The notes: a model not told the origin generated them from the letters alone. Positions 1 to 34,420 are shown, counted from the stretch's first letter. The stretch: DNA of 64,000 nucleotides from an uncultured Planctomycetales bacterium (GCA_964645795.1 CAZYCL010000008.1:8166-72165); one strand, 5' to 3'. Made by a program: numbers and translations.

Positions 1-3000
1 GTCAAACGGAGGCTTGGGCATATTCTTAAGTATGCCGCTGGTAAAAGGCGTAGCAGTATAGCTGGCAGCGACCTTAAGCAGCAGGTCGTTGCCATTGAGG
101 CCGTATTTGTTCTGGCCTAACTTCATAAGGTAAGCTATATACTTGGCTCCGGCATCGATATTCTTGGCATCGTTGTTGACCATGATGTAGGCAAGGCGCA
201 CGCGGCTGCCGTCATATTTCGGATATATGGTCAGATACGCGTCGTAGCCGATCTGCATGCGGCCGGCAGTGGTGGGCTTGACAACCGAACCGAATACGTC
301 AAGTACGCGCTCAAAAGGAGTTAGATCCAGGACTTCATAGAACATCACCGCGGCGACAAACTCGGGGTCAACTCCGTACTTGTTGCTGTATTTGATGATG
401 TTTTCCCTATTCTCTTCTACTCTATTCAAAGCGGTTAAGATGCCCTTGGTATTTCTTACTGTGCCATTGCTGTACTCTGAAGCCTCGAAGAACTTGGCAG
501 CTTCATCTTTACCCAGGTAAAGAGCCAGTGTTCTCTCAATATACGAACGCATAGCCTGATCATTGAGCGCCGCGTAAGCAGCTTCTTTGGATGCATGCGG
601 CTTGAACCCGTCGGCTAACTGGAAGGTCTTTAAGGCGCCCAGCGTCAATATGGACCAGAGCACGACCTTAGCGGCTATCTTTGCGCGGCTGGCAGGCTTA
701 GAGGCCTTGCTTAATTTAGCGGCCTTGTTTAAGCGGGCGGCTTCTCTTTCGGCATCTCTTTCCGCTGCCCACTCATTGGCAAACTTCCAGGCCTCTTGCT
801 TACCAAGGAACAGGGAAGAAGTTAAGAAGACGATCTTCTTGGCCAGGTCATACTTGACCGGCGAAGAGATGTTGCTGTTATTCCTGATCTGGCTCAAGCT
901 CTTGGCAACTATCGCGCTTAAGGCCTGCTTATTGATGTCGCCGTTGACGTTCAGTAAATTGGTATTTAAGGTGGCGCTTAATCCGGCCTTTAATGCGGCA
1001 GGAACCTTGTTTTCTTTGCTGGCGCTAGTGATAAGGGTAAGCTCGGTTACTCTTCTGGCTTCTGAGGCGTTGATGGGCGAGGCGGCCTTGTCAATGCTGG
1101 TAAACATAGGAGGCGCCAAGCTATAATGATAAGTTGCCTTGGGGTCGGTTGCCTTGATCGTGTATACCAAGTTAATCTTTAATCCTATATTATCCAGACC
1201 AGGGAAGTTATTACCGGCGTTAACCGCGAAGCTTTGATTGGCGTTGGCAGCGAGATTTACGGGGAGGTTAATAACGTCAGAAGCCTCGACCGGAGGAGCA
1301 TGGGAGTAAGGAGCGGCATGCGGCATGCTCTTAAATCCGAATTCCGCGCTGCTAGAGTTTCTTGCCAGGCTGTGATTGAAGATAGAATGCACGATGTTTA
1401 AGACAGCGGCGTTCTTAACGGAGTTGCGGCTAATTTCATCGGTGGCGTTATTGATTGCTGTTTCTTTCTTCTCAGTGTTCTTGCTTTCTTTATCCTTAGT
1501 CTCATTATCTACAGAAGCTAACTCAGTACTTAAGGTGGAGTTAACGGAGAAGCGATAGTTAGTTAAGACTTTATTAAAGTCTTTAATTAAGTTGCGGTTT
1601 CCGTTTAATGTTAAGTTGCCTTCGAACCTGTAAGGCTTATAATTATTGCTGTAGTTAAGCGCGCGGTTATATAAAACAGCTTTTCCGGATCTTAACATAT
1701 CTTTTTCCAGCTCAACTGCGCCGTCGATATTAGCGAGAGAAATGCCGTCCTGCTTGTTGGCCACGCTGGTAGAGTAAGTATTGAAAGCAACGGCTGCTCC
1801 GGTTGTAGAGGTGCTGCTTAAAACATAAGCTGCGCTGATACTAGCAGTATTTGCGGCGCCTTCAATATAGGAATAATGTATTACGGGAGAAGCGCCAAAA
1901 GCGTAATCGTCTTCTTTCTCTGTATCGCTATCGCCTGCGGCAGACCCGCCTACGCCAGCACCGGAGCCTGAGCCTGCATCGGCGCCAGCGCCGATGCCTG
2001 CGCCTGAACCGCCGCCGTTGCCGTCACCTTGGAGATCATTTACTTCTTCATCAGAAATTTCTTCAATCTCTTCTTTACCGACCTTCCTTGCACCTGCATT
2101 TTCAAATGATCTTGCCTCGGTGTTCAAGCCTATTGCAATAATCTCACCGTTTTTCTTAAACAATTCGCTTATAAGAACTTCTTTTCCTATAATTGTAAGG
2201 GCGGACGCGTTATCTTCGGAAATAATAAGCTTATCCCCGTTTCTTCCTATAACGTTGAAAGCGTGGTATAAGCGGTCATCGGCTTTCTTCATCAAGATTA
2301 GTCTATCCAACAATCTTTGCGGCATATTCCTTAAAGCATCTTCGGACAAGGCAAATACGCCTAATAAGTCTTGCGCTATGCCTATTGCATCTTTAAGGGA
2401 AACCTTCTTGCCTTCCGCTCTTCTCATGCGGATCGCAGACTCTATTTTCTCTCCCGACTTTTCGCCTACTAATGCGTAAATCGCAAATATCAAACAGTCA
2501 ACCGGATTATCGGTATTCAAATATTTAACAACGCCCTTAACGGCGACATTAGCTTTTTCATTTGCTACTGTAGCTTTTTCATTTGCTACTGTAGCTTTTT
2601 CATTTGCTACTGTAGCTTCTTCTTTTACTTCTTTTAACTCGGCTTCCATCTTCTGCTGGCTTTCCAGTATCTTTACGATTAAATATTTGGTATTGGCATC
2701 AAGGGCCTCCAGGGAAAGAACCTTCTTCAGGTCTTCGTTGGTAGCCACCAATTTACCGAGAGTAGACTTGCCTTCGGCAACCAAGAGCTTTAAAGCATCG
2801 TCATTCTTGTTCAACCTGATCTTGGCACCGACCCTCTTATTATTATCGGCGTTATCTTCGCCAATTGCGTCTATCTCAAGCTGCTTAAGGTCCTCGGCAT
2901 CCAAACCTAATTCATTAACGGCGCGGTCAAACCAGGCCTCTAAGCCGTTGATGGCCTCGACCCTTGTCTTTTCGACCTCATTTTTATCCTCAAATACTCT

Positions 3001-6000
3001 TCTTCTTAACATTAATTTCTTAGCGTCACCGGCTTCGTTAACTATGGAGTTACTGACAGATTCGGCAGAATCAAAGAACATCTGCCTGGTTTCTTCTTCG
3101 GGAAGGATCTCGCCGTTAGGGGCCTCTAATCGGTAATTAAGCTGGGCCTTGGTCAGTATAACCAGAAGCCTGGCCATGCGGGATTTAAGTATTAAGCCGT
3201 TTTCGCTGATAGGACTGGATATGCACTCTCCACGGGTCGGATCCGATGCGCTTGTGGAGGAAACCGGCACCAGATTCTTTGAAATGGCTTCATTTGTAGA
3301 GAAGTTTTCTCTTAAAGGTGAAGCTGCCTCTAAGAGCTTTACATCTGCTGCTAATCTTACTTCTTTACTTACTGCTGGCTGCGGATCATTCGCGCCTGCT
3401 CTTTCTTCGGTTGCACTCTCCGCACCCCGGGTTCTCTCTGAAAGTTTCAGAGAACCTTCTGAAACCTTGTCAAAACCTGCTTGTTTTGCTGCAATGGCCG
3501 CGCTTATTCCCATCAGCTTGGCTAAATTCTGCGCGACAAAATCAATAAAATTAGCCAAGAGGGGACCGGCGGGCGGGGCAAGGCCTGCTGTGTGGTCTGC
3601 AATTGGATCGGAGAATTTAAGGTTATTGACGTTAAGGACCAGCACGCCGCCTATATCCATAGGCATTATGGGGCTGGCTGCCGCAGATAAGGCCATAGCA
3701 GGGCTGAAACTTGAGCTAAATACGCTTCCTACAATGGAGCCGACTCCGCCAAGGCCTGAATTGCCTACAGGAGCATTGCTAACAGGCGCGGTTGGAGCGG
3801 AAACCGGCACTGCAGGCAGGCCTAAAGGCTGCCTGGTATCGCCTAAAGGAACCTCGGAAGGCTCCGGCAGGCGATTTAAAGGTAACTCTTTTGTATTATA
3901 TTTAAATACCTTAGCCTTATCCAGGGTGATCTTGGGCTGCTTAAATGTTGGCACACGGCCAAATCCGGAGCCGCCTGCGCCAATGCCCTTACCCCTGCCT
4001 GAGCCGCCTGCGCCAATACCAAAACCGCTGCCAGCGCCGCCACCAAGGTCCGTAGCGCTCAAAGATTTCACTTCAGGAGCACTGATATCCTGCTGCTTGA
4101 CAGATGAAACCTTGATCTTCTGGCCGGTAACCGCGGCAAGAGTAGTGACAAAAGCCTGGGTAAAGATATCCTGGCGCTTAGCCAAGGAATAATCCGCGTC
4201 TTTAGAAGCCTTTAGCGGAGAGGAGATGGTCTTAGCCTTGGCTGTTAAAAACTCTTTTGTGCCGCTGATCAGGCTGCTGTCTTTGGTAGCCAGCGTATAA
4301 GAGGAGCGCTCATTATCAACGGCCTTGAGCATATCTTCCAATACCTGCGGACTCACCACCGCGCCGGCAGGGTTATCGGTAAAAGGCGTGCCTACGGAGT
4401 TGGTGGCAAGGGCAACATAGCCCTTATCGGTCTTAACCAGATAAGGTGAGCCTGAATCTCCGGGCCGGCCCTTTCCTAACGGATTGATCAATATTATCCT
4501 ATTGCCGATATAGACAGGCTGGCCAGTCACAAGATTCAAATCGTTTCTTGCGCTCACGAGAGTAGCGGGATTGGACTGGATAGACTCAATGGTCTTGGGC
4601 CCGGCTAATTCTACCGGCACCAGGGTCTGGCCTTTAAGATCGCTCTTCTTGACGGCTAATAAAGCCAGGTCGCCTTTGGCTGCGTTCATCTTTTCTCTCA
4701 TGAACCCGGGTCCGAAGGGGATGCCGGAGAATTTGTCTCTTACAAGAGTCATGACAACCGTTGCATCAGTGATTTTTTCGCCCTTCATTGTCTCTAAGGC
4801 AAAGACCTTATCCTTAGCCACATGCGTATTAGTCATGACAAAGTACAGGTCTTGGGTTTGGCCGACAACATAGCCGGTAGCGCCTGCATTCGGAGAATGA
4901 TCTTTGCCTACGGGAGATACCTTTACTATGGTGCGGGAAAGCTCATCCCTGCCGGATTCCATGGCCTGCTTTATTGATTGCAGCTTATCCTGCTGGGCCT
5001 GTCCCGGAAGCACCAATGCCAGCTGCTCTTCCAGCTTCCTGGCTGAAGATTCGATGTCTTTGTCGGCAAGCACGGCATCCATAAGGAACAGCTGGACGTC
5101 GGAAGCGGATACATCCAGGTCTGATAACTTATTTATCAGCGAGCCTACTGCAACGGCAGCGTTATTAGCGGATACGCCCGGCTGCTGCAGGATCCTATCA
5201 AAGATGTCCCGGTTGATATCTTCGTAATTCTCGGCAAGCTTGAGTCTGCTTAAACCGTCCAATAAAGAGTTTACCGCAGGCGTAACATCCTCCATGTCGC
5301 CGCGGTCGATGATCTGGGACAATATGCTTCCGGCAGCATAATCCGATATATGGGCCTTGATGACCAGGTTGTCGGCTAAAGACTTCATATCCGACAAAGT
5401 GGCGCTGTCCAGCATCTTTATAGTTTCGCCGATATCCTTGCGGCCATAAGAAGTGTGGGTGATTATCGGCCGCCTCATTTCAGGACCCATCCCGGCCTTA
5501 TTCAATAGCAGGGAGAGCTCTTTTAAGGGCTCGGTAATATATTCTTCTTCCATCTTTAAGGTCTTGGAGAGGTAATCTTTTTCCGCAGCTAAGGCGCGGT
5601 TCTTCTTAAGCTTGGCAAAGAGAGGCGAGGAAGAAGCCTCGGCGGCTTTAACGGGCGAGGAGACCTTATCCGGCATGCCGATCTCTTCGTTAAGCTTACT
5701 CAGGAACTTCCGGACCTTGCCATCCGTATCATATTGCTTGAGCGCGGCGGCAAAGTTCAAAACTTCCATCTGTCTGTTTTTGAGGGTAAAGAGCGCGGCG
5801 GATTTTTCTGATTCTGTAAATAAGAACGGGTTGAGGTGGCCGAAGAGTTCAATAGCCACGCCGTGGTCGGATTTGGCTAAAATATCTTTGAAGGCTGCGA
5901 AGGCCTTGATGTCTGCGACGGTAACAGTGCCGGACTCGGCCTTGGCAATAAGCAGGTCGAGAGCGGAAAGCACCAGCTGGTTAGGATTGACCTTGCCTTC

Positions 6001-12000: not shown

Positions 12001-15000
12001 GTTGAATAGAAGCGCGCCGCCTCCCATATGCAAAAGCTTAGAGGAATCGAACTTAGTCCAGTTGCCTGTTTTATATGAGTCGACCAGATAGCCGGCGCTT
12101 GCTCCGGCTAGAGTAGTGCCGCCGTATTTTGCCCAGGGATTCATTGTAGAACTGGCCACGCGCGAAAGGATATTTTTGGATGCTCCGAAAAGGACAGAAG
12201 GAGCGAGGAGCCAGGCGTAACTGGTCCCCAGGCTCTTGAAGCCTTCGCCTAAATTCATAGCCCGGCCACTGGAAGAGATGCTGCCGAACTGGTCAATAGC
12301 TAAGCTTGAGTTGACCCAGAACAGGCTTCCGGTGGTAGAAAGATTGCGGGTCGCCATACCCATAGTGCCAACTTTAGCGATATCAGTTCCTTTTTTCAAA
12401 GTTTCTACGGTCTTAAAGATATTGGCGCCTGCTCCTTCAAGCTTACCCAGGTTTGAGGTGTTCCTGATTATGCCGGACATTCTTACCCAGGAAAGACTCT
12501 GCCTTGAGCGGTCAATTGCCGTAGCTAAGTTACCCGCGGAAGCGCCGGCTTTTCCAGCTGCCTGCAAGGCTTTTAAGTCCGTGGATAGTCTGGCTAAGGT
12601 CGCGCTCTTGGCCCATGCCGCGGCGCCCGAGGCGACAAAACCAGTAACACCGGCAACTGCCATTTCTCCGCCGGTAATATGGTCGCCGGTCATTCCGTAT
12701 TTAAGAACGGCTGTAGAAGCAATGCTTCCGGCAGCTCCTACGCTTCCGGCAGCAAGAACAGCAGCCCATTCCGGTCCGGCTAATCCGCCGCTAAGTATAG
12801 TAGTCCCAACTACGATCACCCCCGCAGTAGCATATGTATTGAGTGCTCCTACCGTAAAAGACTTATCTAACGGCAAAACCGGCGTTAACCCGTTTAGTTT
12901 GGCCCTATCATACAGGTCGCCTATTGTCTTGGCGTGATTGCTGATCAGAACCGACATATAAACAGGATGAGCGATATTAACTATGCCAAGATCTTTGAAC
13001 TGCCCTGTAGCCAATGCTTCATTTAGCTTATAATTGGCATAAATCGCATTTCTCTGCGCCAGGCGCTCTTTCCGAGGCTTAAAACCCTGGGCCCTAAGAT
13101 CGCTTCTGTTCAAAGACATCAGCTCATTAAGGCTTTTGTTCACAACATTGCCTTCGTTATCCTGAAGATCTATGGTAATTTTCTTGAAAATCCTATCCGT
13201 ATTATGAAATTCGGAGCGATATCCCGCGGGGCGGCTTTCTCCCAAATCTCCGATGGAGATATCCGACATGATAAGGGCCTTGAAGAACTGCTTGTTTCTT
13301 CTGCTGAATAAAGCTTGCTTAACCAACCCGATTGCTCGCATTTCCAACTCGGGATTAATGACTGCGTTTTGCTCTTCCAGGCTTACTCTTTGGTCGCCGT
13401 TTACGCCCTTGCAATAAAAAGAGTTTGTTTTGTCCCCATGGCGATAATTCATACGCTCATAGCGGACATAATCTCCGCTGGGCAGGCTTAATGAATTCGT
13501 TATATAATAACTGTGGCCCGCAGCTTCCCCGCTGTTCTTATAAACCAATTTCTTTCTGACGACTTCCTGAACCGCGCCGGTTGAAGGATCGAGGATAACG
13601 CCTGCTTCTCCTTCATTGTTCAGGCCGGTTTTAATAAAATGATTATCCGCCTGGAAAAGGACTGCGTAAATTCTGTCTCTATGACTCTCATAAGCTTTAT
13701 CTAATTTAAGCTTTGAATACTGAGGCAGGTTACCTATGCGCCCTTCATTGCCAATAATCGACTTACGCTGCAGGTCTTCATACAGTTTTTTCCCTTCATC
13801 CGCTCCTAATATCTCGTTGAATGCATCCGGCCCAATGACCCCGATTTCCCTTCCGTCCTTGACGAGGATAGCTTCGGTATACCCGATAGGCCGCACCGAC
13901 ATAACCCCTGACAGAACGTTATTAGGGTCTTTGATGCCTAAATCCGGTAGTTTATGTAAAACCTCGCAATCCAGCAATAATGCCTCTCTGTGGTTAATTG
14001 ACGGACTGTGCTTAATCGTAACCATCTCTCTAACGCCTTTGCTGGCTGTTCCTATACCATGAATGTCGGTTCCTATAGCAGCGTAAATGGCACCCTGGCT
14101 GATGTCTTTAGGATTTATGGCTGTGCCATCGGCGTTGAAGTATAATAGAGAAGAAGAGTTCTTGTCATTAATATTCCAATCGGAGTTTGGAACAGCGAAA
14201 TAAGATATACCCTTTGCTTTACAATAGGCCCTGCCTAACTCCTTGGCATTATCACTGCTGTAAGCTATGCCGTCCTTTATGTATATCATGTTCTCTACTA
14301 ACAATTTCTCTGTGGAATGCATCGAATATTCGCTTCCATAGCCGGGATTTTTCTTCATAAGCTCGATCACGGTGAACTGATTAACTTCATTGGCGGGGGT
14401 GATTTTGTAATAACCCTGCTTATAGACCGCATTGTTCGTATGCAGCTCTGTGACAGCCTCTTTTCGCTTAGCCACCAGATATTCAGTATAAGTGCTTACG
14501 GATGAGCTGTTATTGTTTACCGACCCGGTAAAGCTTCTAGTGGAAACCTTGCTGCCCAGATCTTTGCCGGTATGATCCATCAAGTGTTTACGTTTAAGAA
14601 GGGCCACCTTTTTGGCTTCCTCATTACCAAGGGAGTCGGTTGATGTATAAGTAACCCACTCCCTGACAGTGCGCCTGGTTCCCCCGGTCTCCACAGTCAC
14701 TCTTTTTGTTTTGCCATTAACATTAAAAAGCCGATTCAACGGACCATTGCCCTTTATTTTCCCAATCTTGAGATCAGTATTCTTATCTAATCCTAGATTC
14801 TCCGCCGCCTTCGCCGCCAGTATACCCTTATTGCCTTTGGTCAACGGGATAAAAGTAGGCTTTTCAATAAACGGGAAAAAGGCAGCTTTAATCGTCTTTT
14901 TCCCGACTTTAATCTCCAATGTGATAAATTCGGCTGCATCGTTGGCACTATTAGGCACCACGCCAATCAGCTTTCCGCCTTTTAAGGCTTTATTTTTATC

Positions 15001-18000: not shown

Positions 18001-20646
18001 GCCGATTACTCCGTTAGTTGCGCCAATAAGAGGAGCGATAGCGTTCTTTCCGATATCAATACCCAATATAGGAGCTTTATCTTTCCAGCTGGAGATCAGG
18101 CCGTCTTTGAGAGCAGCGCTTCCGTAGAAGTTAACTTCGTAATTCTGGCCCTTATCATTGAAGCGGGCGTTAAGCGCCATGCCCTCGATATCCTTGCGGG
18201 TATAGTGCATGATCTTCTGGTTGTCTTCGAGCGCAATGGTCGCTCCGTTAATTCTAAGCGGATCTCTTATCCAGTCGTTTGCCTGCCCTATGGGCCTCAA
18301 AGCCTGGGTGTTGGTAAGCAAGGGGATGTGCGAACCTTCGTTATTAAACCAGAGTTTTTGTTCTTTGGTGGCGATAACCTCCAGAAGGTCGTTCCTGTTG
18401 CCAATAGTAATGTTGCCGTAGGTACCGATGCTCTTAGGATATACGGGGTCAGCAGCCGAGCCGGAACCGAGTATCTGATTGGTAACCACTGCCTTGCCGT
18501 TTGAACCGGCAAAGGCGTTCAGGCGGCCGGTATTGGTGTAATCAAACCCCGCCAGATCCAGTTTGCCGGTCTGTTTGCCGTCAAGCCAGGTAGTAATATC
18601 GCCTCTAGAAACGCTCTTCTCCATTGAACCCGCCCCGATAATGTTGCCTTGATGGTCGAACTCCTGGCGGGAGCCCTCTTTGATCCTCATATCAATAAGA
18701 TTGGTAGTTATGGATTTGCCTATGGGCAGAGCGTAAGAAACGGAATAATTGGTTTCAGGATTCTTGGTGACCACGCTCATCCCAAAAGGATGAAGGTTTA
18801 GGGACCTTCCGCTTGCCGGAGAAGACTCGATGCGGAAACCGCTAGCTCCGCTATTCTCAAACATCTTATTCCTGAACTCCATTCCGGAGACCAACGGTAT
18901 TGCCTGGCTGCCGTATCCAGAAGTAAATAGCGTGTCTCCGGGACGGGCGTGCAGGCCGGCGCGGGTGAAGTTTAAAGTAAAGTCACCCTGGGCATTGGCG
19001 GGATGTATTTCCATCACGCTTAAGCCTTGCGGCGCGGATTGAACGGGCTTTACGGAAAAGATATTGTTGTACGGCGTGGGGGCCGAGGAAGGCCGGTCAT
19101 CGAAGTTCGAGGCCACTTCAGGGGAACGCAAGGTGTTCATGTAGGTAGACATGTCCCACCTTAAGCTTCCCGGCTGCAGGTTCTGGAAAGATCTTTGGCT
19201 AAGGTTAGTGCTAAAGTTAAGATCGCCTATCTTGCTGCCGATCCAAACGGTGGTGCCGTCTTTGACTTTGCCTTTCCTGGCATCGAGGCCCGTATCAAAT
19301 AAGGCCTGCGCATAATTCTTATACCCGGTGGAGTTGATCCTGCTCCAGACATCTCCCTTGACATCAAAGTTAACGTAATTGTTGGAGGTAAGCCTGGTGT
19401 TGCCGTGCCAGGCGCCGCTCAACACTCCGTTATTATATGTGGTGCTGATATAGCCGTTCTTAAACCACTGGTTAATGCCGCCACTTACCATTGCCGGTGC
19501 GCCGTTATTGGCATATTGGGTATTGCGATAGGATGTCTTAAAACCGTAGACATCGGTGGTGACCGTATTCCTGCTTAAGCGGCCGGGTTCGGTGAAATTC
19601 ATGGTGAAGGTCACCGGTTTAAAGCTATTGTTATTAGAACGAGTAATGTTCTGGGTAAGATTAAGCTGGGCATTGGGATTTGAGGCCGAGTTATAACCCT
19701 GGCTGCTCTGGCCTACCGCGTTATTGTTGTACTTATAGCTGGAATCCTTGTTCTGCCTCTGGGTCCTGAATCTGTCCTGGCCAAACTGCCCCCAGTCAGC
19801 CGCGCCCATGACCTTCTGCGCTTCTGCCTGCGAAAGAAGCCGGGTATTTTCGTTGGCGGTCAAGATCAAGGCGTTTCCGGAGAACCTTTCGGAGAACTTT
19901 TCCAAAGGCAGGTATGATTCCGTATGCTCATCAACGAAATAAACTTTATCAACGGTAATTCTGGTAACTAAAATATAGTGGTCCCCGTTTAAGTGGGCGA
20001 TGAAAGGGGCCAATTCAGTTGTGCCGGTTGGCCAGTTGGCCAGTTGGCCAGTTAAATCTATATTTACGGGATAAAGCTTGGTGCCGAAGAATTCAGAGGC
20101 ACGGGAAAGGGCATAAAGGGAGTTCTTGACTACTGCGGGATCGCCTTCGGGCCTGATCACTCCGTTTAAGATGTCGGTAGTGAGGGCCAGGACCGCGATA
20201 TCCTGCTCAACTACTTCAATGCCCTGATAACGCAGGAAGTCATAAAGCGCCTTGGCGCCGCAGGGCCTGTTTTTCAACCAATTGTATATCTCTTCGATCC
20301 TGGACTTGGATAGGTTAAGCGGCTTTTCCAGTTCAATGGCGATCTCCGGTGAAAGACGGATGGAGGTAATCGGCTTGCCGGCAACTTCATTTAAAATATT
20401 ACGGACTGCAAAAGGAATATCAAACTGCGGATTGGTGTTTAATGGGGAGGCGGTATAAAGCTCTGCACCGGGCCTGTTCCAGAGCACTCGCCAATCATAC
20501 TCAACTGCCTGGGCAACCTGCTCAGGAACGAATACGCATACCACTAAAAAAGCCACCACTCTTATCCAGCGCTTAAAACCGGACTTGAACGGCGGCTGAA
20601 CTTCTGTCGCCTGCGCATCGCTTACGGTAATGGGGGCTACTTTCAT
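1..20646 (-). CDS. Giant secreted multidomain protein, over 6,882 aa, C-terminus truncated by the window edge. N-terminal signal anchor, internal ~240-aa Gly/Ala-rich repeat modules, trypsin-like S1 peptidase domain, C-terminal SLT/lysozyme-like region.
   Basis: Hand translation of the minus strand from ATG at 20646..20644 (MKVAPITVSDAQ..., followed by a hydrophobic segment WIRVVAFLVVCVFV) shows no stop through position 1. The frame is confirmed at three distant points: the start codon, GRPGDSGSPYLV at about 4445-4470 with TNTHV at about 4840, and G(R)MQ/EV motifs at about 250-450. Plus-strand ORFs in this span are all short shadow ORFs. The ORF track omits it, probably because it has no stop inside the window. 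Confidence 0.8.
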   Translation of the reverse strand, partial: MKVAPITVSDAQATEVQPPFKSGFKRWIRVVAFLVVCVFVPEQVAQAVEYDWRVLWNRPGAELYTASPLNTNPQFDIPFAVRNILNEVAGKPITSIRLSPEIAIELEKPLNLSKSRIEEIYNWLKNRPCGAKALYDFLRYQGIEVVEQDIAVLALTTDILNGVIRPEGDPAVVKNSLYALSRASEFFGTKLYPVNIDLTGQLANWPTGTTELAPFIAHLNGDHYILVTRITVDKVYFVDEHTESYLPLEKFSERFSGNALILTANENTRLLSQAEAQKVMGAADWGQFGQDRFRTQRQNKDSSYKYNNNAVGQSSQGYNSASNPNAQLNLTQNITRSNNNSFKPVTFTMNFTEPGRLSRNTVTTDVYGFKTSYRNTQYANNGAPAMVSGGINQWFKNGYISTTYNNGVLSGAWHGNTRLTSNNYVNFDVKGDVWSRINSTGYKNYAQALFDTGLDARKGKVKDGTTVWIGSKIGDLNFSTNLSQRSFQNLQPGSLRWDMSTYMNTLRSPEVASNFDDRPSSAPTPYNNIFSVKPVQSAPQGLSVMEIHPANAQGDFTLNFTRAGLHARPGDTLFTSGYGSQAIPLVSGMEFRNKMFENSGASGFRIESSPASGRSLNLHPFGMSVVTKNPETNYSVSYALPIGKSITTNLIDMRIKEGSRQEFDHQGNIIGAGSMEKSVSRGDITTWLDGKQTGKLDLAGFDYTNTGRLNAFAGSNGKAVVTNQILGSGSAADPVYPKSIGTYGNITIGNRNDLLEVIATKEQKLWFNNEGSHIPLLTNTQALRPIGQANDWIRDPLRINGATIALEDNQKIMHYTRKDIEGMALNARFNDKGQNYEVNFYGSAALKDGLISSWKDKAPILGIDIGKNAIAPLIGATNGVIGSQNNLLLPKSIADRQQWDLSKNKRQEFDFTIHEANLSALDKDYNYQGEPRQLLDAARRSLKLTLNPADITRGAAAVNLGIQAKQFIFPSQVASVAAANNDSDNAGANIAKQKVTSWSLKEVAPYIYEANSATGKEQRAAWLHVDTKSLRSNIDTTPMFESAKFNVAGDMNKFVRAVQLDNKGLVNGEIIAFAANDYNPVTGIGSNLSGRKLELNNAGIVRGTSAKSGWVNINSLGTGFIEVSGAKNTIQAANIALNKVNFWVRDVAGDMRFDNFSIGKASEFRNGQEGRELAIKTRLDNHKPVIDILSKHELLLKQLPKASFDQPSAQKEAPESTLPAMDITPTVKAGRTLANKQRVDFILNNLGSTNVGLSGNLTNVTFNATKNIDKLTLGVQDPLSRGARVIGIRPSGIDKVKFDSQQRMVTENVGEFYKGIDTATDSFAMVLTDVEKIKQNNDVKLARVIYAGILQNQKFVNGEKPTDQAIALIEAEVNKMNINQLTSKIEAKIKEGGGKLAVSTPEVIIARGVNFERTLIKAPGADKPGEYFYKDGGFSLSRIDFKDGTKRTDITPGISPADERGINSLYIDITGKAPAFGKQMGPMVSGVEQQPANSVEPANVSYRQTNFGVENNKVFGENQRISFAPGALFSARANAELDLSNTELTGMKNFVWLGLARQANDNGMTGYAGIMTHGKNSAFFNKQQQLAGIDENFLISSTWSNINALLDAKMLHRINNINDVPDELLEPLAADLKVTVGDKANLRSDIAKVIQAKDFNKIVTTAFKEGVNADGVSFSRMITGVKDAAAEYSYAHFSLDKLTFKDKYSISSSGLKAGIGSDAQPYIDLKGDKDGYERAFGAFSAASQNQAAEPPASGRDPVTSNFKFDKAGYGLANNQRLLFNNNSLFSPTGSLSLDTRNATFTGVDNVIASGWGFNPHPVVVDMSKARLQDYWSFGLERLFSEDLTKKLLAIDNDHNSKDKEKKKQEAIKAEFKAFDDRYRDVLDKNKALKGGKLIGVVPNSANDAAEFITLEIKVGKKTIKAAFFPFIEKPTFIPLTKGNKGILAAKAAENLGLDKNTDLKIGKIKGNGPLNRLFNVNGKTKRVTVETGGTRRTVREWVTYTSTDSLGNEEAKKVALLKRKHLMDHTGKDLGSKVSTRSFTGSVNNNSSSVSTYTEYLVAKRKEAVTELHTNNAVYKQGYYKITPANEVNQFTVIELMKKNPGYGSEYSMHSTEKLLVENMIYIKDGIAYSSDNAKELGRAYCKAKGISYFAVPNSDWNINDKNSSSLLYFNADGTAINPKDISQGAIYAAIGTDIHGIGTASKGVREMVTIKHSPSINHREALLLDCEVLHKLPDLGIKDPNNVLSGVMSVRPIGYTEAILVKDGREIGVIGPDAFNEILGADEGKKLYEDLQRKSIIGNEGRIGNLPQYSKLKLDKAYESHRDRIYAVLFQADNHFIKTGLNNEGEAGVILDPSTGAVQEVVRKKLVYKNSGEAAGHSYYITNSLSLPSGDYVRYERMNYRHGDKTNSFYCKGVNGDQRVSLEEQNAVINPELEMRAIGLVKQALFSRRNKQFFKALIMSDISIGDLGESRPAGYRSEFHNTDRIFKKITIDLQDNEGNVVNKSLNELMSLNRSDLRAQGFKPRKERLAQRNAIYANYKLNEALATGQFKDLGIVNIAHPVYMSVLISNHAKTIGDLYDRAKLNGLTPVLPLDKSFTVGALNTYATAGVIVVGTTILSGGLAGPEWAAVLAAGSVGAAGSIASTAVLKYGMTGDHITGGEMAVAGVTGFVASGAAAWAKSATLARLSTDLKALQAAGKAGASAGNLATAIDRSRQSLSWVRMSGIIRNTSNLGKLEGAGANIFKTVETLKKGTDIAKVGTMGMATRNLSTTGSLFWVNSSLAIDQFGSISSSGRAMNLGEGFKSLGTSYAWLLAPSVLFGASKNILSRVASSTMNPWAKYGGTTLAGASAGYLVDSYKTGNWTKFDSSKLLHMGGGALLFNGAVLTAAKGGRAAKAVKGAVDGATKWIAAEAPAALRYTSAAAGGAGIGYLADSVITGNWGFKEEGMIFDTPNWSKIAAMAGGAAVGFTGSRVAAKYGKGMGAGLYTGWAKGITPKDFTVLETRFYKIGKAARLTAEKGGMPLRGAASGYTASSFISGKWGLNNQEGNFDWDKLGMTLGGGLLGVGFGKDIAAAANPLNKAAKTSSYVKFAGAALMAPGLSAGLKNRLPEDSWLNEHKVLAMAIPAAAVLLGAGAIKYNKALLNFIKHPATLGAMGGAGAGYLADSLATGNWGFKEEGMIFDTPNWSKIVAMGSGAVIGATTVYAVNRNPVIKEGFRGGAKGLEKEVIAKEFATGALRRQIESQQKLFDISYAVGKNIKPVGAAIRSPLLGAGAGYLTESAITGNWKFKDEKGWDVAKIVAMTGGAAAFSAIDFIRWGKLIDGAKLAKGLNSAGSAVKKGFVATRLYTNKALIPVGDLVGWRNPAVFLGGSTAAAQADLRHPMVNELGAAAVIPGLLLNPGRGILATAGNIGNFLGIRNDVAKRVDMVKYQERLLFNDMLRENIGGIGSSVIAYAFYRADSLIQAASGSYSIRAIGNLKETALSFFDSVNKAKETLKELNYNEIPEDKWVEFGMIFGSMVGGARGLKQLAGQLRQAAIAESRTYLNLRSAAAEAKAVAPNVPLSVSVPQFLSRVHRDAKNLVYINTAFTIGMPLIMNYGPNGYGFSEFLDQVYNAAYQKDEIASGAVGAAFIWRGATGITKAVSHSRLGNWANAQLNKFDNASFGKQAAIAGGSLAGGSTLHWLGTSEKIGIQDKAAGVILSHIGLLAAGTGAVLLARSITKLPAYQRFLNRGRIGTEVKIAKDAGKFKESEFFTGTTGEQMKVTKEGVLIKNKGPNGADILIKNKERVQIKLANGEIKTKAVPFSRDWLFGTGEEAMSGRWQGLAHQIKYTTAWGTAGALAGYLRYTQDKKAGKEFAENGALPYLLMGAGIGAFGLKNLPKLSRTAAHWGVQGLGIAGTGALIYSGKKLTFDPLAGIFEESLDPAKKGKGGLNYWQRARTYLFTKHDVLEIDQYNPIGADGKYNYKVVGQANDWSYALFMGALARGLANVGKVARKSYRGHDLKSPKGFWYGLRKEGINSNIIRGGQQLGEFKQALKQPQTYTSAVLPLAGGIGAYYLGKSDKLKDTTFGKVLRYGGIALAGYGALQTLGVLGGNLSPAEWQKLGTKMGLGKAGSHILGAGKYLTYDFALRGTIGNLFTVIAPLYGVIEATSLLTHKFIVPSASTDFEKSLWRSTFGAFWVPGEDGNIQNYIDIVGVNGQAWKNANGLDQKFNLALKVINRAYSVGLFGYKTDEEGNSTGEARIKSLKDGLAWDRSKDVVGNARVWFDNFDNSNLRFSAILAVLQPMAEPILSNIKRANFGKHFQAIGKGMEETFSAKAILGTAPRLASTQGALSAGRVMDMAITGTIEETLSEQVIQMGLSVLPWTVVGNPQLAALISEVLQETLSPFGAGARNYMPTRREALRMVNSALSSKYTPADAKMLPLLNKAKEDLENLKTNTAEDVIGAVLPVLSHQVNNPSTGSTFDLAGYARQAINKRFGIDEKINIELVGLNKLVNKETNTLVTAQYSEGTLKMDVGKNFIFDFDKSGNLTFTPSVVAVYNAIHEKEHDIIKRVQQDNLGLIKNPQERAQYDNMLKVISGVLGISVPELNLEISEWDPNEMVVQYFSLLDLAEYVKTHPGHSYGNDFGTENMKDLIERTTNQDFDSFSDAVGALNAKSGWRDTVTENAREKKQVLHSTGNFLFDVVDFVQWTNGNRVKRMRPMVQGPDDEYDKRVAKVYQAIVAAGGNIDPDDYDIKVVRNGGTKDSLAFTSEKNIGTMLVNERALRGIPEDTRLMVYLHDGHHVLFELKENKQSGFSKNKLDELISLAKDNENLKHALNGMIDYFRHTYDNIVTDVVAGIDIKGLNDNDAVKVSAQELKDKRERIATSRHFDSQVPPVEGKVNPNQLVLSALDLLIAKAESGTVTVADIKAFAAFKDILAKSDHGVAIELFGHLNPFLFTESEKSAALFTLKNRQMEVLNFAAALKQYDTDGKVRKFLSKLNEEIGMPDKVSSPVKAAEASSSPLFAKLKKNRALAAEKDYLSKTLKMEEEYITEPLKELSLLLNKAGMGPEMRRPIITHTSYGRKDIGETIKMLDSATLSDMKSLADNLVIKAHISDYAAGSILSQIIDRGDMEDVTPAVNSLLDGLSRLKLAENYEDINRDIFDRILQQPGVSANNAAVAVGSLINKLSDLDVSASDVQLFLMDAVLADKDIESSARKLEEQLALVLPGQAQQDKLQSIKQAMESGRDELSRTIVKVSPVGKDHSPNAGATGYVVGQTQDLYFVMTNTHVAKDKVFALETMKGEKITDATVVMTLVRDKFSGIPFGPGFMREKMNAAKGDLALLAVKKSDLKGQTLVPVELAGPKTIESIQSNPATLVSARNDLNLVTGQPVYIGNRIILINPLGKGRPGDSGSPYLVKTDKGYVALATNSVGTPFTDNPAGAVVSPQVLEDMLKAVDNERSSYTLATKDSSLISGTKEFLTAKAKTISSPLKASKDADYSLAKRQDIFTQAFVTTLAAVTGQKIKVSSVKQQDISAPEVKSLSATDLGGGAGSGFGIGAGGSGRGKGIGAGGSGFGRVPTFKQPKITLDKAKVFKYNTKELPLNRLPEPSEVPLGDTRQPLGLPAVPVSAPTAPVSNAPVGNSGLGGVGSIVGSVFSSSFSPAMALSAAASPIMPMDIGGVLVLNVNNLKFSDPIADHTAGLAPPAGPLLANFIDFVAQNLAKLMGISAAIAAKQAGFDKVSEGSLKLSERTRGAESATEERAGANDPQPAVSKEVRLAADVKLLEAASPLRENFSTNEAISKNLVPVSSTSASDPTRGECISSPISENGLILKSRMARLLVILTKAQLNYRLEAPNGEILPEEETRQMFFDSAESVSNSIVNEAGDAKKLMLRRRVFEDKNEVEKTRVEAINGLEAWFDRAVNELGLDAEDLKQLEIDAIGEDNADNNKRVGAKIRLNKNDDALKLLVAEGKSTLGKLVATNEDLKKVLSLEALDANTKYLIVKILESQQKMEAELKEVKEEATVANEKATVANEKATVANEKANVAVKGVVKYLNTDNPVDCLIFAIYALVGEKSGEKIESAIRMRRAEGKKVSLKDAIGIAQDLLGVFALSEDALRNMPQRLLDRLILMKKADDRLYHAFNVIGRNGDKLIISEDNASALTIIGKEVLISELFKKNGEIIAIGLNTEARSFENAGARKVGKEEIEEISDEEVNDLQGDGNGGGSGAGIGAGADAGSGSGAGVGGSAAGDSDTEKEDDYAFGASPVIHYSYIEGAANTASISAAYVLSSTSTTGAAVAFNTYSTSVANKQDGISLANIDGAVELEKDMLRSGKAVLYNRALNYSNNYKPYRFEGNLTLNGNRNLIKDFNKVLTNYRFSVNSTLSTELASVDNETKDKESKNTEKKETAINNATDEISRNSVKNAAVLNIVHSIFNHSLARNSSSAEFGFKSMPHAAPYSHAPPVEASDVINLPVNLAANANQSFAVNAGNNFPGLDNIGLKINLVYTIKATDPKATYHYSLAPPMFTSIDKAASPINASEARRVTELTLITSASKENKVPAALKAGLSATLNTNLLNVNGDINKQALSAIVAKSLSQIRNNSNISSPVKYDLAKKIVFLTSSLFLGKQEAWKFANEWAAERDAEREAARLNKAAKLSKASKPASRAKIAAKVVLWSILTLGALKTFQLADGFKPHASKEAAYAALNDQAMRSYIERTLALYLGKDEAAKFFEASEYSNGTVRNTKGILTALNRVEENRENIIKYSNKYGVDPEFVAAVMFYEVLDLTPFERVLDVFGSVVKPTTAGRMQIGYDAYLTIYPKYDGSRVRLAYIMVNNDAKNIDAGAKYIAYLMKLGQNKYGLNGNDLLLKVAASYTATPFTSGILKNMPKPPFD
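2551..2631 (-). repeat. 21-bp perfect tandem repeat (3 full copies plus 1 partial) inside the giant CDS, encoding (ATVANEK)n
   Basis: agctttttcatttgctactgt is repeated head-to-tail. It is in frame (a multiple of 3) and translates to EKATVANEKATVANEKATVANEKANVA. Confidence 0.85.
20017..20042 (-). repeat. 8-bp tandem repeat (ttggccag x3) about 200 codons into the giant CDS
   Basis: ggttggccagttggccagttggccagtt is read directly. The unit length is not a multiple of 3, so gain or loss of one unit would frameshift the giant gene. Confidence 0.8.
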
Positions 20647-32467: not shown

Positions 32468-32473
32468 GCGCTT

Positions 32474-33510: not shown

Positions 33511-33513
33511 AAG

Positions 33514-34419: not shown

Positions 34420-34420
34420 A

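What the first reader, a model, noticed from the sequence alone, without database searches (positions are those of the whole stretch)
1..20646. Unannotated >6,880-codon ORF encoding a giant secreted protein with protease and lysozyme-like domains
The ORF track shows only short plus-strand ORFs across the first 20.6 kb. Yet a single minus-strand frame is open from ATG at 20646 past the window edge. I checked frame continuity at three points about 16 kb apart: the start codon, the S1-peptidase His/Ser motifs TNTHV...GDSGSP at 4.4-4.9 kb, and an SLT/lysozyme-like E...G(R)MQ stretch at about 0.25-0.45 kb. The protein begins with a signal anchor and contains several near-identical ~240-aa Gly/Ala-rich modules. 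For example, the DNA at 11040-11110 and 11760-11830 is nearly identical, encoding ...LADS(V/L)ITGNWGFKEEGMIFDTPNWSKI.... A giant surface protein combining a trypsin-like protease with a peptidoglycan-lytic-like domain, sitting next to a Tad pilus, suggests a cell-cell attack or attachment machine.
Basis: partly seen in the sequence, partly recalled or inferred. Interest (0 to 1): 0.85.

Follow-up and report, generated by a model that had tools for sequence, protein, structure and literature searches.

The report
Omnitrophota giant cell-wall-lytic protein gene
The first 20.6 kb of the window is the start of one real giant gene (more than 6,882 codons) from an Omnitrophota-type ultra-small bacterium; it lies downstream of a Tad pilus/secretion cluster and carries a cysteine peptidase, a serine protease and a Tse3-like peptidoglycan-cutting domain, which makes it a new example of a gene class already described in recent papers.

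Summary
The ORF is real. The minus-strand frame from 20646 to base 1 has 6,882 codons and no stop, against 183-530 stops in the other five frames, and it runs off the window. Both enzyme calls hold, but only through family profiles. The protease family has invariant His/Asp/Ser and matches S. aureus Spl/V8 S1 proteases (E 1e-7). The lysozyme-like family matches the catalytic domain of the P. aeruginosa T6SS muramidase Tse3 (E 1e-25), with its Glu/Gln/Tyr conserved. On its own, the window's sequence is below Pfam thresholds for both.

It is an N-terminal signal/anchor plus Peptidase_C39 head, 50-60% identical to 47 proteins, most of those with a source name being "partial" proteins from Candidatus Omnitrophota. 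"Several near-identical 240-aa modules" is overstated: there is one 112-nt pair (87% identical, 64 nt exact). "Unannotated" is an artefact of the ORF list.

The layout is PPIase-RcpC-secretin-TadA-pilins-TadB/C, then the C39 head and the giant ORF. This matches published descriptions of Omnitrophota giant genes (West-Roberts 2023; Seymour 2023; Nielsen & Lui 2026). The likely role is a contact-dependent lytic effector or tether against bacterial hosts, which is inferred, not shown.

Verdict: a new member of a known kind, of moderate interest.

The parts
1..20646 (-). Giant ORF of at least 6,882 codons, truncated by the window edge. The real start may be ATG 20733.
   Evidence: 0 stops in frame against 183-530 in the other frames. 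The gene caller on an identical Logan contig starts at 20733.
20813..20840 (-). Near-consensus sigma-70-like promoter (TTGACT-16-TATAAT, with TG) upstream of the giant ORF.
   Evidence: 11 of 12 hexamer matches, the best in the 11-kb scan. This is a consensus match only.
20506..20583 (-). N-terminal signal peptide or signal anchor (aa 22-47: FKRWIRVVAFLVVCVFVPEQVAQA|VEY).
   Evidence: Hydropathy peak. The stretch, including PEQVAQAVEYDWRVLW, is nearly invariant in homologues.
19792..20589 (-). Conserved 'head' module (aa ~20-285) with a Peptidase_C39-like papain-fold domain. C129-G130 and H223 are invariant, and D239 lies 16 residues after the His.
   Evidence: Pfam PF03412 at 28-30 bits against a cut-off of 22. 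47 homologues, 50-60% identical over this module in the best-scoring ones; most that carry a source name are labelled 'C39 domain-containing protein, partial [Candidatus Omnitrophota/Omnitrophica]'. The His motif aligns with LahT150 and ComA C39 domains.
8167..12849 (-). Central Gly/Ala-rich region (aa ~2600-4160) with about 10 uncharged hydrophobic 19-mers that may be TM helices. It is the only body region similar to another giant ORF.
   Evidence: Composition; hydropathy. tblastn to the L083 14,858-aa ORF matches aa 3359-3634 and 3797-4161 at about 34% identity.
11067..11178 (.). Copy 1 of the only strong internal DNA repeat. It encodes GYLADS.xTGNWGFKEEGMIFDTPNWSKI.
   Evidence: the repeat finder family D1; 64-nt exact run.
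11763..11874 (.). Copy 2 of the repeat (87% identical). The independent Logan contig L084 ends inside it, at window 11806.
4327..4929 (-). S1 (chymotrypsin-fold, S1B-like) serine protease domain, aa ~5240-5440. Triad: H5275, D5326, S5398.
   Evidence: Trypsin_2 at 20 bits, E 1e-3, below the cut-off. 16 relatives found in 1.84 billion representatives. Invariant H/D/GDSG. The profile hits SplE at 1e-7, then SplB/D/A/F and V8 protease. 13 of 14 members hit Trypsin_2.
1..414 (-). Tse3-like muramidase / SLT-fold domain, aa ~6745-6882, cut by the window edge. E6771, Q6798 and Y6863 correspond to Tse3 E250, Q280 and Y376.
   Evidence: 8 relatives; alignment A2 invariants. The profile hits Tse3 structures at E 1.2e-25, then EmtA and goose lysozyme. 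7 of 9 members hit PF22115. The roles of the Tse3 residues are from PMC3792639.
21188..22219 (-). 343-aa ORF immediately upstream of the giant gene; no known family.
   Evidence: present on independent Logan contigs.
22411..29295 (-). 2,294-aa ORF with an N-terminal signal and hydrophobic segments; no known family and no similarity to the giant ORF.
31580..33334 (-). TadB/TadC-like platform proteins (two T2SSF proteins).
   Evidence: Pfam T2SSF at E 1e-16 and 1e-19.
33337..40734 (-). Flp-type pilins and large TadE/G-like minor pilins: at least 8 ORFs with class-III signal N-termini such as RKGQSIIEY.
   Evidence: Translations; Pfam Tad and TIGR03816 for 34421-35752.
43902..49515 (-). TadZ/ParA-TadA fusion ATPase, secretin (RcpA-like, with TonB_C), RcpC/CpaB, and a Rotamase_2 PPIase.
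   Evidence: Pfam T2SSE 1e-64, Secretin 2e-41, RcpC 6e-22, Rotamase_2 1e-12.

Best explanation
WHAT IT IS
This is the 5' part (at least 20.6 kb) of a giant gene from a Candidatus Omnitrophota-type bacterium. It occupies the conserved position of such genes, downstream of a Tad/Flp-type pilus-secretion cluster.

ARCHITECTURE OF THE PRODUCT
1. A Sec-type signal or anchor.
2. A conserved C39-like cysteine-peptidase 'head' with the Cys/His pair intact.
3. More than 5,000 residues of lineage-specific sequence with no detectable family. This includes a central Gly/Ala-rich, possibly membrane-embedded, region.
4. An S1B-like serine protease with an intact triad.
5. A Tse3-like muramidase with the catalytic Glu intact. 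The protein then continues beyond the window.

SHOWN
- ORF integrity.
- Domain homologies and conservation of the catalytic residues.
- Synteny with other giant genes.
- Affiliation with Omnitrophota.

INFERRED MECHANISM
- The protein is exported and held at the cell surface.
- The Tad-like pilus brings the tiny cell into contact with a larger bacterial host or prey cell.
- The muramidase cuts the glycan strands of the target's peptidoglycan, and the serine protease cuts envelope proteins or peptide stems. This breaches or loosens the target wall.
- The C39 head either processes the giant polypeptide into pieces or anchors and matures it.
For: ORF
- 6,882 codons with 0 stops, against 183-530 stops in the other frames.
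- Logan assemblies of four sequencing runs cover parts of the 5' 8.8 kb and the upstream genes and are 100% identical.

HEAD MODULE
- Pfam C39 scores above its cut-off.
- There are 47 homologues with E down to 1e-163, and most of those with a source name are labelled Omnitrophota.
- C129/G130/H223 are invariant.
- The His motif aligns with the LahT and ComA C39 domains.

SYNTENY
- In L081 and L083, TadE/G-like genes and two T2SSF genes are followed by a C39 ORF and then a 9,670-aa or 14,858-aa ORF.
- Part of the L083 giant ORF is about 34% identical to aa 3359-4161 here.

TAXON
- The TadA-like ATPase is closest to two Omnitrophota MAGs, at 55% and 53% identity over its full length.
- The named relatives of both enzyme domains are large 'partial' Omnitrophota proteins, apart from one fragment from a marine sediment metagenome.

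PROTEASE.

MURAMIDASE. The catalytic roles of Tse3 Glu250, Gln280 and Tyr376 are from PMC3792639.

LITERATURE MATCH
- Giant genes are 'preceded by a secretion system... gspD, gspE, gspF... rcpC... Rotamase_2', carry an N-terminal C39 near the signal peptide, and have SLT as a less common domain.
- A cluster of 24 giant proteins has C39 as its only Pfam architecture.
- Giant-ORF peptides were 3-fold enriched in attached V. archaeovorus cells.
Against: - No experiment or expression data exist for this locus.
- Export, surface location and topology are inferred from one N-terminal hydrophobic segment. No TM predictor was available.
- The window's own protease and muramidase segments are below Pfam thresholds, so homology rests on transitive family profiles.
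- Both single-sequence AlphaFold models failed, with pLDDT 34 and 42.
- 91% of the protein has no detectable family.
- The SecA-DEAD domain and the many TM helices reported for full-length Omnitrophota giants were not seen in the 6,882 residues available.
- Four unrelated ORFs separate the giant gene from the Tad genes, and it has its own promoter-like site. Co-regulation with the Tad genes is therefore not shown.
- Omnitrophota make peptidoglycan themselves (abstract), so a self-directed role for the muramidase cannot be excluded.
Confidence: 0.62

Rival explanations
1. Housekeeping or self-directed role. The SLT-fold domain locally remodels the cell's own peptidoglycan so that the Tad machine, or the giant protein itself, can cross the wall, as dedicated lytic transglycosylases do in type III/IV secretion and pilus clusters. 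The proteases only mature the polypeptide.
For: The gene lies in a Tad/secretin neighbourhood. According to Nielsen & Lui, Omnitrophota have intact peptidoglycan synthesis. West-Roberts et al. proposed the C39 and S8 domains as self-cleaving.
Against: The closest characterised relative is an interbacterial toxin, Tse3, at E 1e-25. Housekeeping transglycosylases such as EmtA score only E 0.014. A wall-remodelling enzyme does not need to sit about 6,700 residues into a giant exported protein. Within the family, the domain recurs at internal positions of other multi-kiloresidue Omnitrophota proteins.
Confidence: 0.13
2. The protein is mainly a structural surface coat or adhesin ('velamen'-type tether). 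The enzyme domains are minor accessories for scavenging nutrients from debris, not for breaching live cells.
For: 91% of the sequence is low-complexity Ala/Gly/Asn/Ser-rich with no enzymatic signature. Kizina et al., as quoted by Seymour et al., proposed that the V. archaeovorus giant protein forms an extracellular coat, and adhesin roles have been proposed for other giant ORFs.
Against: Three hydrolase domains all keep their catalytic residues across relatives of about 30-35% identity, which argues for selection on activity. A coat role and a lytic role are not mutually exclusive.
Confidence: 0.18
3. The long ORF is an assembly artefact: a chimera or collapsed repeat, or a pseudogene read-through.
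For: A 64-nt exact repeat lies inside the ORF, and one independent short-read contig ends within it.
Against: No stop occurs in 20.6 kb, while every other frame has hundreds. The frame is kept on both sides of the repeat. The 5' 8.8 kb is reproduced exactly in independent assemblies. Conserved functional domains lie at both ends, in the same frame. Relatives have ORFs of 9,670 and 14,858 aa in the same position.
Confidence: 0.03

Closest known systems
Giant ORFs of Candidatus Omnitrophota (Kizina 2022 / Seymour 2023 PMC10066038; West-Roberts 2023 bioRxiv 10.1101/2023.11.21.568195; Nielsen & Lui 2026 bioRxiv 10.64898/2026.06.07.730766), especially the architecture cluster whose only Pfam domain is Peptidase_C39
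   Same: The ORF is longer than 20 kb. It has an N-terminal signal plus C39 peptidase. It follows a Tad/T2SS-like cluster with secretin, ATPase, two GspF/TadB-C proteins, RcpC and a Rotamase_2 PPIase. Most of the sequence has no family. An SLT-type domain is present. Relatives are almost all contig-truncated Omnitrophota proteins.
   Different: No glycosyltransferase, methyltransferase, NUDIX, dockerin or SecA-DEAD domain occurs in the 6,882 residues seen. Few clear TM helices are present. Here the SLT-fold domain is specifically Tse3-like and is paired with an S1B-like protease, and neither preprint's main text mentions Tse3 or trypsin-type domains. The C39 head is fused here but is a separate ORF in L081 and L083. 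Four extra ORFs lie between TadC and the giant gene.
Tse3 of Pseudomonas aeruginosa (T6SS peptidoglycan muramidase effector; PDB 4N7S, 3WA5, 4LUQ; Pfam PF22115)
   Same: The catalytic-domain family profile matches at E 1.2e-25 over about 135 positions. The catalytic Glu250, Gln280 and Tyr376 equivalents are conserved (E6771, Q6798, Y6863).
   Different: The window's own sequence is only about 22% identical to Tse3 (pairwise E 0.023) and does not itself reach PF22115. No T6SS or Tsi3-like gene was found in the window. The domain is embedded in a giant protein rather than in a 400-aa effector. The N-terminal membrane-binding domain of Tse3 is absent.
Staphylococcal S1B serine proteases (SplA-F, V8 glutamyl endopeptidase) / Pfam Trypsin_2
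   Same: The family profile aligns over nearly the whole ~200-aa domain at E 1e-7 to 2e-4. The His (TNxHV), Asp (DxAxL) and Ser (GDSGSP) motifs are in register.
   Different: These are distant relatives. The window's segment scores 20 bits against a cut-off of 27.6. It is not a free secreted zymogen but an internal module. Substrate specificity is unknown.
Kil Tad-like contact-dependent killing system of Myxococcus xanthus (PMC8460266; PMC12075869)
   Same: It is a Tad-type pilus machine with several large minor pilins, in a bacterium thought to live by attacking other cells. The Kil pilus is assembled at the prey contact site and is needed for killing.
   Different: Only an analogy is proposed; orthology with kil genes was not tested. 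No T3SS*-like genes are seen here. The Kil abstract read here mentions no giant lytic protein.
C39 double-glycine peptidase domains of PCAT/AMS ABC transporters (ComA, LahT150)
   Same: A Pfam PF03412 match, an aligned His motif (PFIAHL..DHYILV against PCIIHWNFNHFVVL), and an invariant Cys-Gly upstream.
   Different: It is not fused to an ABC transporter. It follows a signal or anchor at the N-terminus of a giant protein. The Cys-containing half is not aligned by the profile (E only 0.02-0.07 to PDB). No double-glycine leader substrate has been identified.

Membership tests
Omnitrophota giant genes (as described by West-Roberts 2023, Seymour 2023, Nielsen & Lui 2026) | Single ORF longer than 20 kb (Seymour), or at least 10,000 aa (Nielsen & Lui) | tested here: inconclusive
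   At least 20,646 nt and 6,882 codons lie in the window, and the ORF runs off the edge. The >20 kb criterion is met. The >=10 kaa criterion cannot be judged without the rest of the 80.6-kb source contig.
Omnitrophota giant genes | Encoded by a member of phylum Omnitrophota | tested here: met
   The best full-length TadA relatives are two Omnitrophota MAGs at 55% and 53% identity. Most of the 47 head-module homologues that carry a source name, and all but one of the named enzyme-domain relatives, are labelled Candidatus Omnitrophota/Omnitrophica. No phylogenomic placement was possible.
Omnitrophota giant genes | Preceded by a multi-gene T2SS/Tad-like cluster (secretin, GspE/TadA, GspF/TadB-C, RcpC, Rotamase_2 PPIase, class-III signal peptide genes) | tested here: met
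   All of these were found at 31.5-49.5 kb on the same strand. The published description was read.
Omnitrophota giant genes | N-terminal C39 peptidase near a signal peptide | tested here: met
   PF03412 at 28-30 bits against a cut-off of 22, at aa 178-266, after the aa 22-47 signal or anchor.
Omnitrophota giant genes | Numerous transmembrane regions and a divergent SecA DEAD-like domain | tested here: inconclusive
   Only 1-3 strong hydropathy peaks and about 10 weak Gly/Ala-rich ones were found. No SecA hit appeared in Pfam or NCBIfam tiles. The protein is truncated and no dedicated TM predictor was available.
Omnitrophota giant genes | PilZ genes and solute-binding/glycosyl hydrolase genes downstream | not testable with these tools
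   The downstream region lies beyond window position 1, and the 80.6-kb NCBI contig was not returned by the look-ups.
Peptidase C39 (PF03412) | Profile match above the curated threshold | tested here: met
   25.8-30.4 bits against a cut-off of 22. It covers profile positions 48-132 of 133 only.
Peptidase C39 (PF03412) | Catalytic Cys and His (and Asp) present | tested here: inconclusive
   H223 aligns with the catalytic-His motif of LahT150 and ComA. C129-G130 is invariant in 13 and in 12 sequences, but it lies in the half that the profile does not align. D239 lies 16 residues after the His and is D/E/N in homologues.
S1 / PA-clan serine protease (Trypsin_2, PF13365) | Profile match above the curated threshold for this sequence | tested here: not met
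   20.0-20.2 bits against a cut-off of 27.6, E 1e-3.
S1 / PA-clan serine protease (Trypsin_2, PF13365) | Homology demonstrable through its own family | tested here: met
   16 relatives with E 4e-21 to 4e-4 in 1.84 billion proteins. 13 of 14 aligned members hit Trypsin_2 (best 8.5e-9) and 10 of 14 hit Trypsin. The family profile hits SplE at 1e-7 and V8 protease at 2e-4.
S1 / PA-clan serine protease (Trypsin_2, PF13365) | His-Asp-Ser triad in canonical order and motifs | tested here: met
   H5275 (TNTHV), D5326 (GDLALL) and S5398 (GDSGSP) are invariant in all 14 sequences.
S1 / PA-clan serine protease (Trypsin_2, PF13365) | Double beta-barrel chymotrypsin fold | tested here: inconclusive
   The single-sequence AlphaFold2 model has pLDDT 33.6 and is unusable.
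Tse3-like muramidase catalytic domain (PF22115) / SLT fold | Profile match for this sequence | tested here: not met
   The window's sequence scores SLT 16.3 bits (cut-off 21.3) and SLT_2 15.5 bits, with no PF22115 hit at E<=1.
Tse3-like muramidase catalytic domain (PF22115) / SLT fold | Homology demonstrable through its own family | tested here: met
   8 relatives with E 3e-48 to 6e-4. The family profile, which includes the window's sequence, hits six Tse3 PDB sequences at E 1.2e-25 and 93 bits. 7 of 9 members hit PF22115, best 1e-16.
Tse3-like muramidase catalytic domain (PF22115) / SLT fold | Catalytic Glu and groove residues (Tse3 Glu250, Gln280, Tyr376) | tested here: met
   E6771, Q6798 and Y6863 are invariant in alignment A2 and aligned to these Tse3 residues. 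Their roles are from PMC3792639.
Tse3-like muramidase catalytic domain (PF22115) / SLT fold | Delivery by a type VI secretion system, with a cognate Tsi3-type immunity protein | tested here: not met
   None of the 36 window ORFs scanned against Pfam has a T6SS or immunity-family hit. The region downstream of the domain is outside the window.
Tad/Flp pilus system (neighbouring cluster) | TadA ATPase, TadB/C, secretin, RcpC/CpaB, Flp pilins with the G/A|xxxxEY motif, TadE/G minor pilins | tested here: met
   Pfam hits and pilin N-termini read from translations.
Tad/Flp pilus system (neighbouring cluster) | Prepilin peptidase (TadV/CpaA, Peptidase_A24) | tested here: not met
   No A24 hit appeared among the ORFs scanned in the window. 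It may be encoded elsewhere in the genome.

The most novel reading that the evidence does not exclude
The giant protein is the lytic cargo or effector of the Tad-like machine. In this reading, a Kil-like contact-dependent killing pilus in an ultra-small bacterium presents or delivers a tethered multi-enzyme polypeptide to a bacterial host, and the C39 head releases or activates the modules on contact. The polypeptide carries a T6SS-toxin-type Tse3 muramidase and an S1 protease. This would give Tad-mediated killing an identified effector. It would also show that at least some Omnitrophota giants target bacteria (murein) and not archaea.
Probability: 0.2. Interest if true: 0.75.

Novelty: new member of a known kind. 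Interest (0 to 1): 0.4.

Why it matters
Giant genes of Omnitrophota are among the largest known and are almost entirely uncharacterised, so their function is an open question. This example is unusually easy to read. It has three hydrolase modules with intact catalytic residues. One of them belongs to the family of a proven interbacterial peptidoglycan toxin, Tse3.

That gives a concrete, testable handle in the form of two small domains that can be expressed, aa ~5235-5450 and aa ~6700 to the domain end. It also points to bacterial rather than archaeal targets for this lineage. The two domain families recovered here recur in other partial Omnitrophota giants and could be used to annotate them.

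It does not change the overall picture. The class, its Tad-linked context and the predation hypothesis are already published.

Tried and rejected
- Whole-protein and tiled scans (Pfam, NCBIfam, PDB sequences) found nothing beyond C39.
- The word-indexed homologue search found nothing with aa 3901-6882 or with the two enzyme segments concatenated. Only the N-terminal 700 aa gave hits.
- The genome-contig scan with aa 1-5000 found no relative.
- Single-sequence AlphaFold2 of the protease and muramidase segments gave pLDDT 33.6 and 42.4. No fold search was run, because matches to such models would be meaningless. Homologues found by the representative search could not be used as an alignment for structure prediction.
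- Direct BLASTP of the window's C-terminus against the Tse3 fragment is weak (22% identity, E 0.023). It was kept only as a check that the motifs are in register.
- Look-ups of window proteins returned Logan contigs but not the 80.6-kb NCBI contig, so the 3' end of the gene could not be reached.
- Flp-type prepilin processing of the giant's N-terminus was considered and rejected, because the hydrophobic stretch precedes the conserved AQA|VEY motif instead of following it.
- The C39 head as the missing prepilin peptidase was considered and rejected, because the pilins lack a double-glycine site.
- Rfam and tRNA scans found nothing inside the ORF.
- The 2,294-aa and 343-aa neighbours have no family and no similarity to the giant ORF.


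Full report
OBSERVATION

The reverse complement of window 1-20646, read in the frame of the ATG at 20646, gives 6,882 codons with no stop and is still open at window position 1. Over the same DNA, the other two minus-strand frames contain 415 and 528 stops and the three plus-strand frames contain 183-530. The open frame therefore cannot be a chance event. GC by codon position is coding-like along the first 18 kb of the ORF that were sampled.

- TNTHV at aa 5272.
- GDLALL, with D5326.
- GDSGSP at aa 5396.
- GRMQ at aa 6795.

The N-terminus has a basic stretch followed by a hydrophobic stretch (aa 22-47) that ends in AQA|VEY.

Two parts of the observation need correction.

First, the 'several near-identical ~240-aa modules' reduce to a single DNA repeat pair. 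The copies are at 11067-11178 and 11763-11874. They are 112 nt long, 87% identical, share a 64-nt exact core and lie 696 nt apart. The surrounding 232-aa units are only about 38% identical. A short motif recurs about five times in aa 2840-3310 at low identity, and there are a few other weak internal similarities.

Second, 'unannotated' is an artefact of the ORF list, which omits ORFs that run off the window.

Logan assemblies from four sequencing runs are 100% identical to window 11806-30619 or to parts of it. One of them ends at 11806, inside the 64-nt exact repeat, which is the expected behaviour of a k-mer assembler.

WHAT THE PROTEIN CONTAINS

Scans of the whole protein, and of ten overlapping tiles, against Pfam, NCBIfam and PDB sequences find only one family above a curated threshold. 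That family is Peptidase_C39 at aa 178-266, at 26-30 bits against a cut-off of 22. About 91% of the sequence has no detectable family. It is Asn/Ser/Gly-rich near the N-terminus and Ala/Gly-rich between aa 2500 and 4250.

Head module. The first 700 residues recover 47 proteins in the 5.8-billion-cluster database, with E down to 1e-163. Most of those that carry a source name are called 'cysteine peptidase family C39 domain-containing protein, partial [Candidatus Omnitrophota/Omnitrophica]'. In most of them only the first ~280 residues are conserved, at 50-60% identity in the better-scoring hits; the two closest relatives, P0001 and P0002, align over more than 80% of the query. The conserved features are:
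- the signal/anchor and the adjoining PEQVAQAVEYDWRVLW stretch;
- an invariant Cys129-Gly130;
- an invariant His223;
- an acidic or amide residue 16 positions after the His.

A profile of this module finds the C39 double-glycine protease domains LahT150 and ComA in the PDB. The matches are weak (E 0.02-0.07), but the catalytic-His motif is aligned. The Cys-containing half is not aligned by the profile.

Serine protease. On its own, the segment aa 5235-5450 scores only 20 bits on Trypsin_2 (cut-off 27.6). Against PDB sequences it gives only marginal hits, although 11 of 13 are chymotrypsin-fold proteases. An exhaustive HMMER search of 1.84 billion representative proteins, using the two enzyme segments concatenated, found 16 relatives of this segment (E 4e-21 to 4e-4).

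In the 14-sequence alignment the His, the Asp and the G-D-S-G of the triad are invariant, at about 35% overall identity. Thirteen of 14 members hit Trypsin_2 and 10 hit Trypsin. The family profile matches S. aureus SplE (E 1e-7), SplB/D/A/F and V8 glutamyl endopeptidase over nearly the whole domain, with all three catalytic motifs in register. This is an S1, S1B-like, serine protease that looks catalytically competent.

Muramidase. The last 200 residues score below threshold on SLT (16.3 bits against 21.3). The same exhaustive search found eight relatives (E 3e-48 to 6e-4). The nine-sequence alignment has an invariant Glu, a G-x-x-Q motif and a Y-T motif.

[quoted passage not shown] The match is E 1.2e-25 at 93 bits, followed at a distance by EmtA and goose-type lysozymes. 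Seven of nine members hit Pfam PF22115 (T6SS_Tse3_cat).

The invariant Glu, Gln and Tyr are E6771, Q6798 and Y6863 in the giant protein. They align with Tse3 Glu250 (the catalytic residue shown by mutagenesis), Gln280 and Tyr376. The roles of the Tse3 residues are from PMC3792639. In relatives the domain continues for about 25 residues beyond where the window cuts it, and it is usually internal to proteins of 2,000-4,500 aa or more. The true C-terminus may therefore be far away.

Who owns these domains. Seven of the eight domain relatives that carry a source name are large, mostly 'partial', proteins of Candidatus Omnitrophota MAGs; the eighth is an unnamed fragment from a marine sediment metagenome. 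Because of other domains they carry, the sources name them ATP-binding protein, response regulator, diguanylate cyclase or glycogen/starch synthase. They are fragments of other giant multi-domain proteins.

NEIGHBOURHOOD AND TAXON

Upstream on the same strand, running from 49.5 kb down towards the giant gene, lie:
- a Rotamase_2 PPIase;
- RcpC/CpaB;
- a secretin with a TonB_C tail;
- a ParA/TadZ-TadA fusion ATPase;
- at least eight genes with Flp/TadE-type class-III signal N-termini, including minor pilins of 254, 443 and 504 aa;
- two T2SSF (TadB/TadC) genes.

Next come a PsbP-like protein, a 23S_rRNA_IVP protein, a 2,294-aa protein and a 343-aa protein, the last two with no family. A near-consensus promoter-like site follows at 20840-20813, and then the giant gene.

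The TadA-like ATPase is most similar to two Omnitrophota MAGs (55% and 53% identity over its full length). The next relatives are a Planctomycetales MAG and Bdellovibrio-like bacteria.

In two related metagenomic loci the order is TadE/G-like genes, two T2SSF genes, a C39 ORF (876 or 480 aa), and then an ORF of 9,670 or 14,858 aa. The second of these giant ORFs is about 34% identical to aa 3359-3634 and 3797-4161 of this protein. The head is therefore sometimes a separate gene and sometimes fused, as it is here.

COMPARISON WITH THE LITERATURE

West-Roberts et al. (bioRxiv 10.1101/2023.11.21.568195) describe Omnitrophota giant genes in the following terms:
- C39 peptidase domains occur near the N-terminal signal peptide.
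- SLT lytic transglycosylase is a less common domain.
- The authors propose attachment to prey cell walls and their degradation.

Seymour et al. (PMC10066038) report giant ORFs longer than 20 kb, and Tad complexes, across the phylum. They quote the three-fold enrichment of giant-ORF peptides in attached V. archaeovorus cells.

Nielsen & Lui (bioRxiv 10.64898/2026.06.07.730766) catalogue 916 proteins of at least 10 kaa:
- The largest Pfam-architecture cluster is a 24-protein group whose only Pfam family is PF03412.
- 80% of sequence clusters are singletons.

The window fits this description point by point. Neither preprint's main text mentions Tse3 or trypsin-type domains. Assigning the SLT-fold module to the Tse3 family, and recognising a recurrent S1 protease family with an invariant triad, are modest additions.

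MECHANISM

Shown:
- The ORF is intact.
- It has three hydrolase modules with conserved catalytic residues.
- It lies in the conserved Tad-linked position of Omnitrophota giant genes.

Inferred:
- The product is exported through its N-terminal signal or anchor and stays associated with the cell surface.
- The Tad-type pilus, with its large minor pilins, brings the small cell into contact with a larger bacterium. This is analogous to the Myxococcus Kil system (PMC8460266, PMC12075869).
- The Tse3-like domain hydrolyses the target's peptidoglycan glycan strands, and the S1 protease attacks envelope proteins.
- The C39 head matures or cleaves the polypeptide.

A Tse3-type domain points to murein-containing (bacterial) targets, not to the archaeal prey known for V. 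archaeovorus.

Rivals:
- A self-directed wall-remodelling role for assembly of the secretion system.
- A mainly structural coat or adhesin role.
- An assembly artefact, which is very unlikely.

LIMITS

- The 3' end of the gene is outside the window, and the 80.6-kb source contig could not be retrieved.
- Both AlphaFold jobs had to run without alignments and failed.
- No TM or signal predictor was available.
- There are no expression or activity data.

VERDICT

Interest is moderate (0.4). It rests mainly on the clean, testable Tse3-like and S1 modules, and on the possibility that the giant protein is the effector of a Tad-type killing machine.

Noticed in passing
window 46048-47649 (-): The Tad-cluster secretin (Secretin plus T2SS-T3SS_pil_N) carries a C-terminal TonB_C domain, which is an unusual fusion.
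   Followed up: no
window 43902-46046 (-): The TadA-type T2SSE ATPase is fused to an N-terminal ParA/MinD (TadZ-like) domain. After Omnitrophota and one Planctomycetales MAG, the closest full-length relatives include Bdellovibrio-like predators, a groundwater Deltaproteobacteria MAG and Firmicutes MAGs, all at about 40-43% identity.
   Followed up: partly
window 41090-43405 (+): A 771-aa plus-strand ORF with a Pro/Glu/Ala-rich N-terminal half interrupts the otherwise minus-strand Tad cluster. It has no Pfam or NCBIfam hit.
   Followed up: partly
window 31000-49600: No Peptidase_A24 prepilin peptidase was found among the scanned ORFs, although at least 8 genes have class-III pilin N-termini (for example RKGQSIIEY).
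   Followed up: partly
L081 10001-22631; L083 10001-21443: In related loci the C39 head is a separate ORF (876 aa and 480 aa), 33-126 nt upstream of a 9,670-aa or 14,858-aa ORF. In the window the head and the giant ORF are fused, so this gene family shows fusion and fission.
   Followed up: partly
window 11806 (end of Logan contig L084); repeats at 11067-11178 and 11763-11874: An independent short-read assembly breaks exactly inside the 64-nt exact repeat. The copy number of the 696-nt unit should be checked with long reads.
   Followed up: partly
window 20646-20745 (-): The frame is open up to a TAA at about 20745. An upstream in-frame ATG at 20733 is the start chosen by the gene caller on the Logan contig. 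Homologue N-termini vary in length, so the true start is ambiguous.
   Followed up: partly
window 22411-29295 (-): A 2,294-aa ORF with an N-terminal signal and hydrophobic segments and a duplicated C-terminal segment of about 90 aa (…FTPINN.ELE.KV…ACRNGSITE.NY…NPNWLST…). It has no known family and is a singleton at 90% identity in the 15-billion-protein collection.
   Followed up: partly
window 8167-12849 (-), aa ~2600-4160 of the giant: About ten uncharged Gly/Ala-rich hydrophobic 19-mers that may be transmembrane or glycine-zipper segments. This is also the only body region with similarity to another giant ORF (L083).
   Followed up: partly
window 2550-2626 and 3968-4041: In-frame short tandem repeats inside the giant ORF: 21 nt x 3.7 copies and 33 nt x 2.2 copies.
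   Followed up: no
window 53030-56712 (+) and 58457-61477 (-): A FIST-domain protein, a histidine kinase and a response-regulator-GGDEF operon, plus a hybrid CHASE4/PAS kinase. This is c-di-GMP signalling near the Tad and giant genes. West-Roberts et al. note PilZ and GGDEF links to giant genes.
   Followed up: no
window 29696-30160 (-) and 31010-31543 (-): A 23S_rRNA_IVP (four-helix-bundle) protein gene and a PsbP-like lipoprotein gene lie between TadC and the large ORFs.
   Followed up: no
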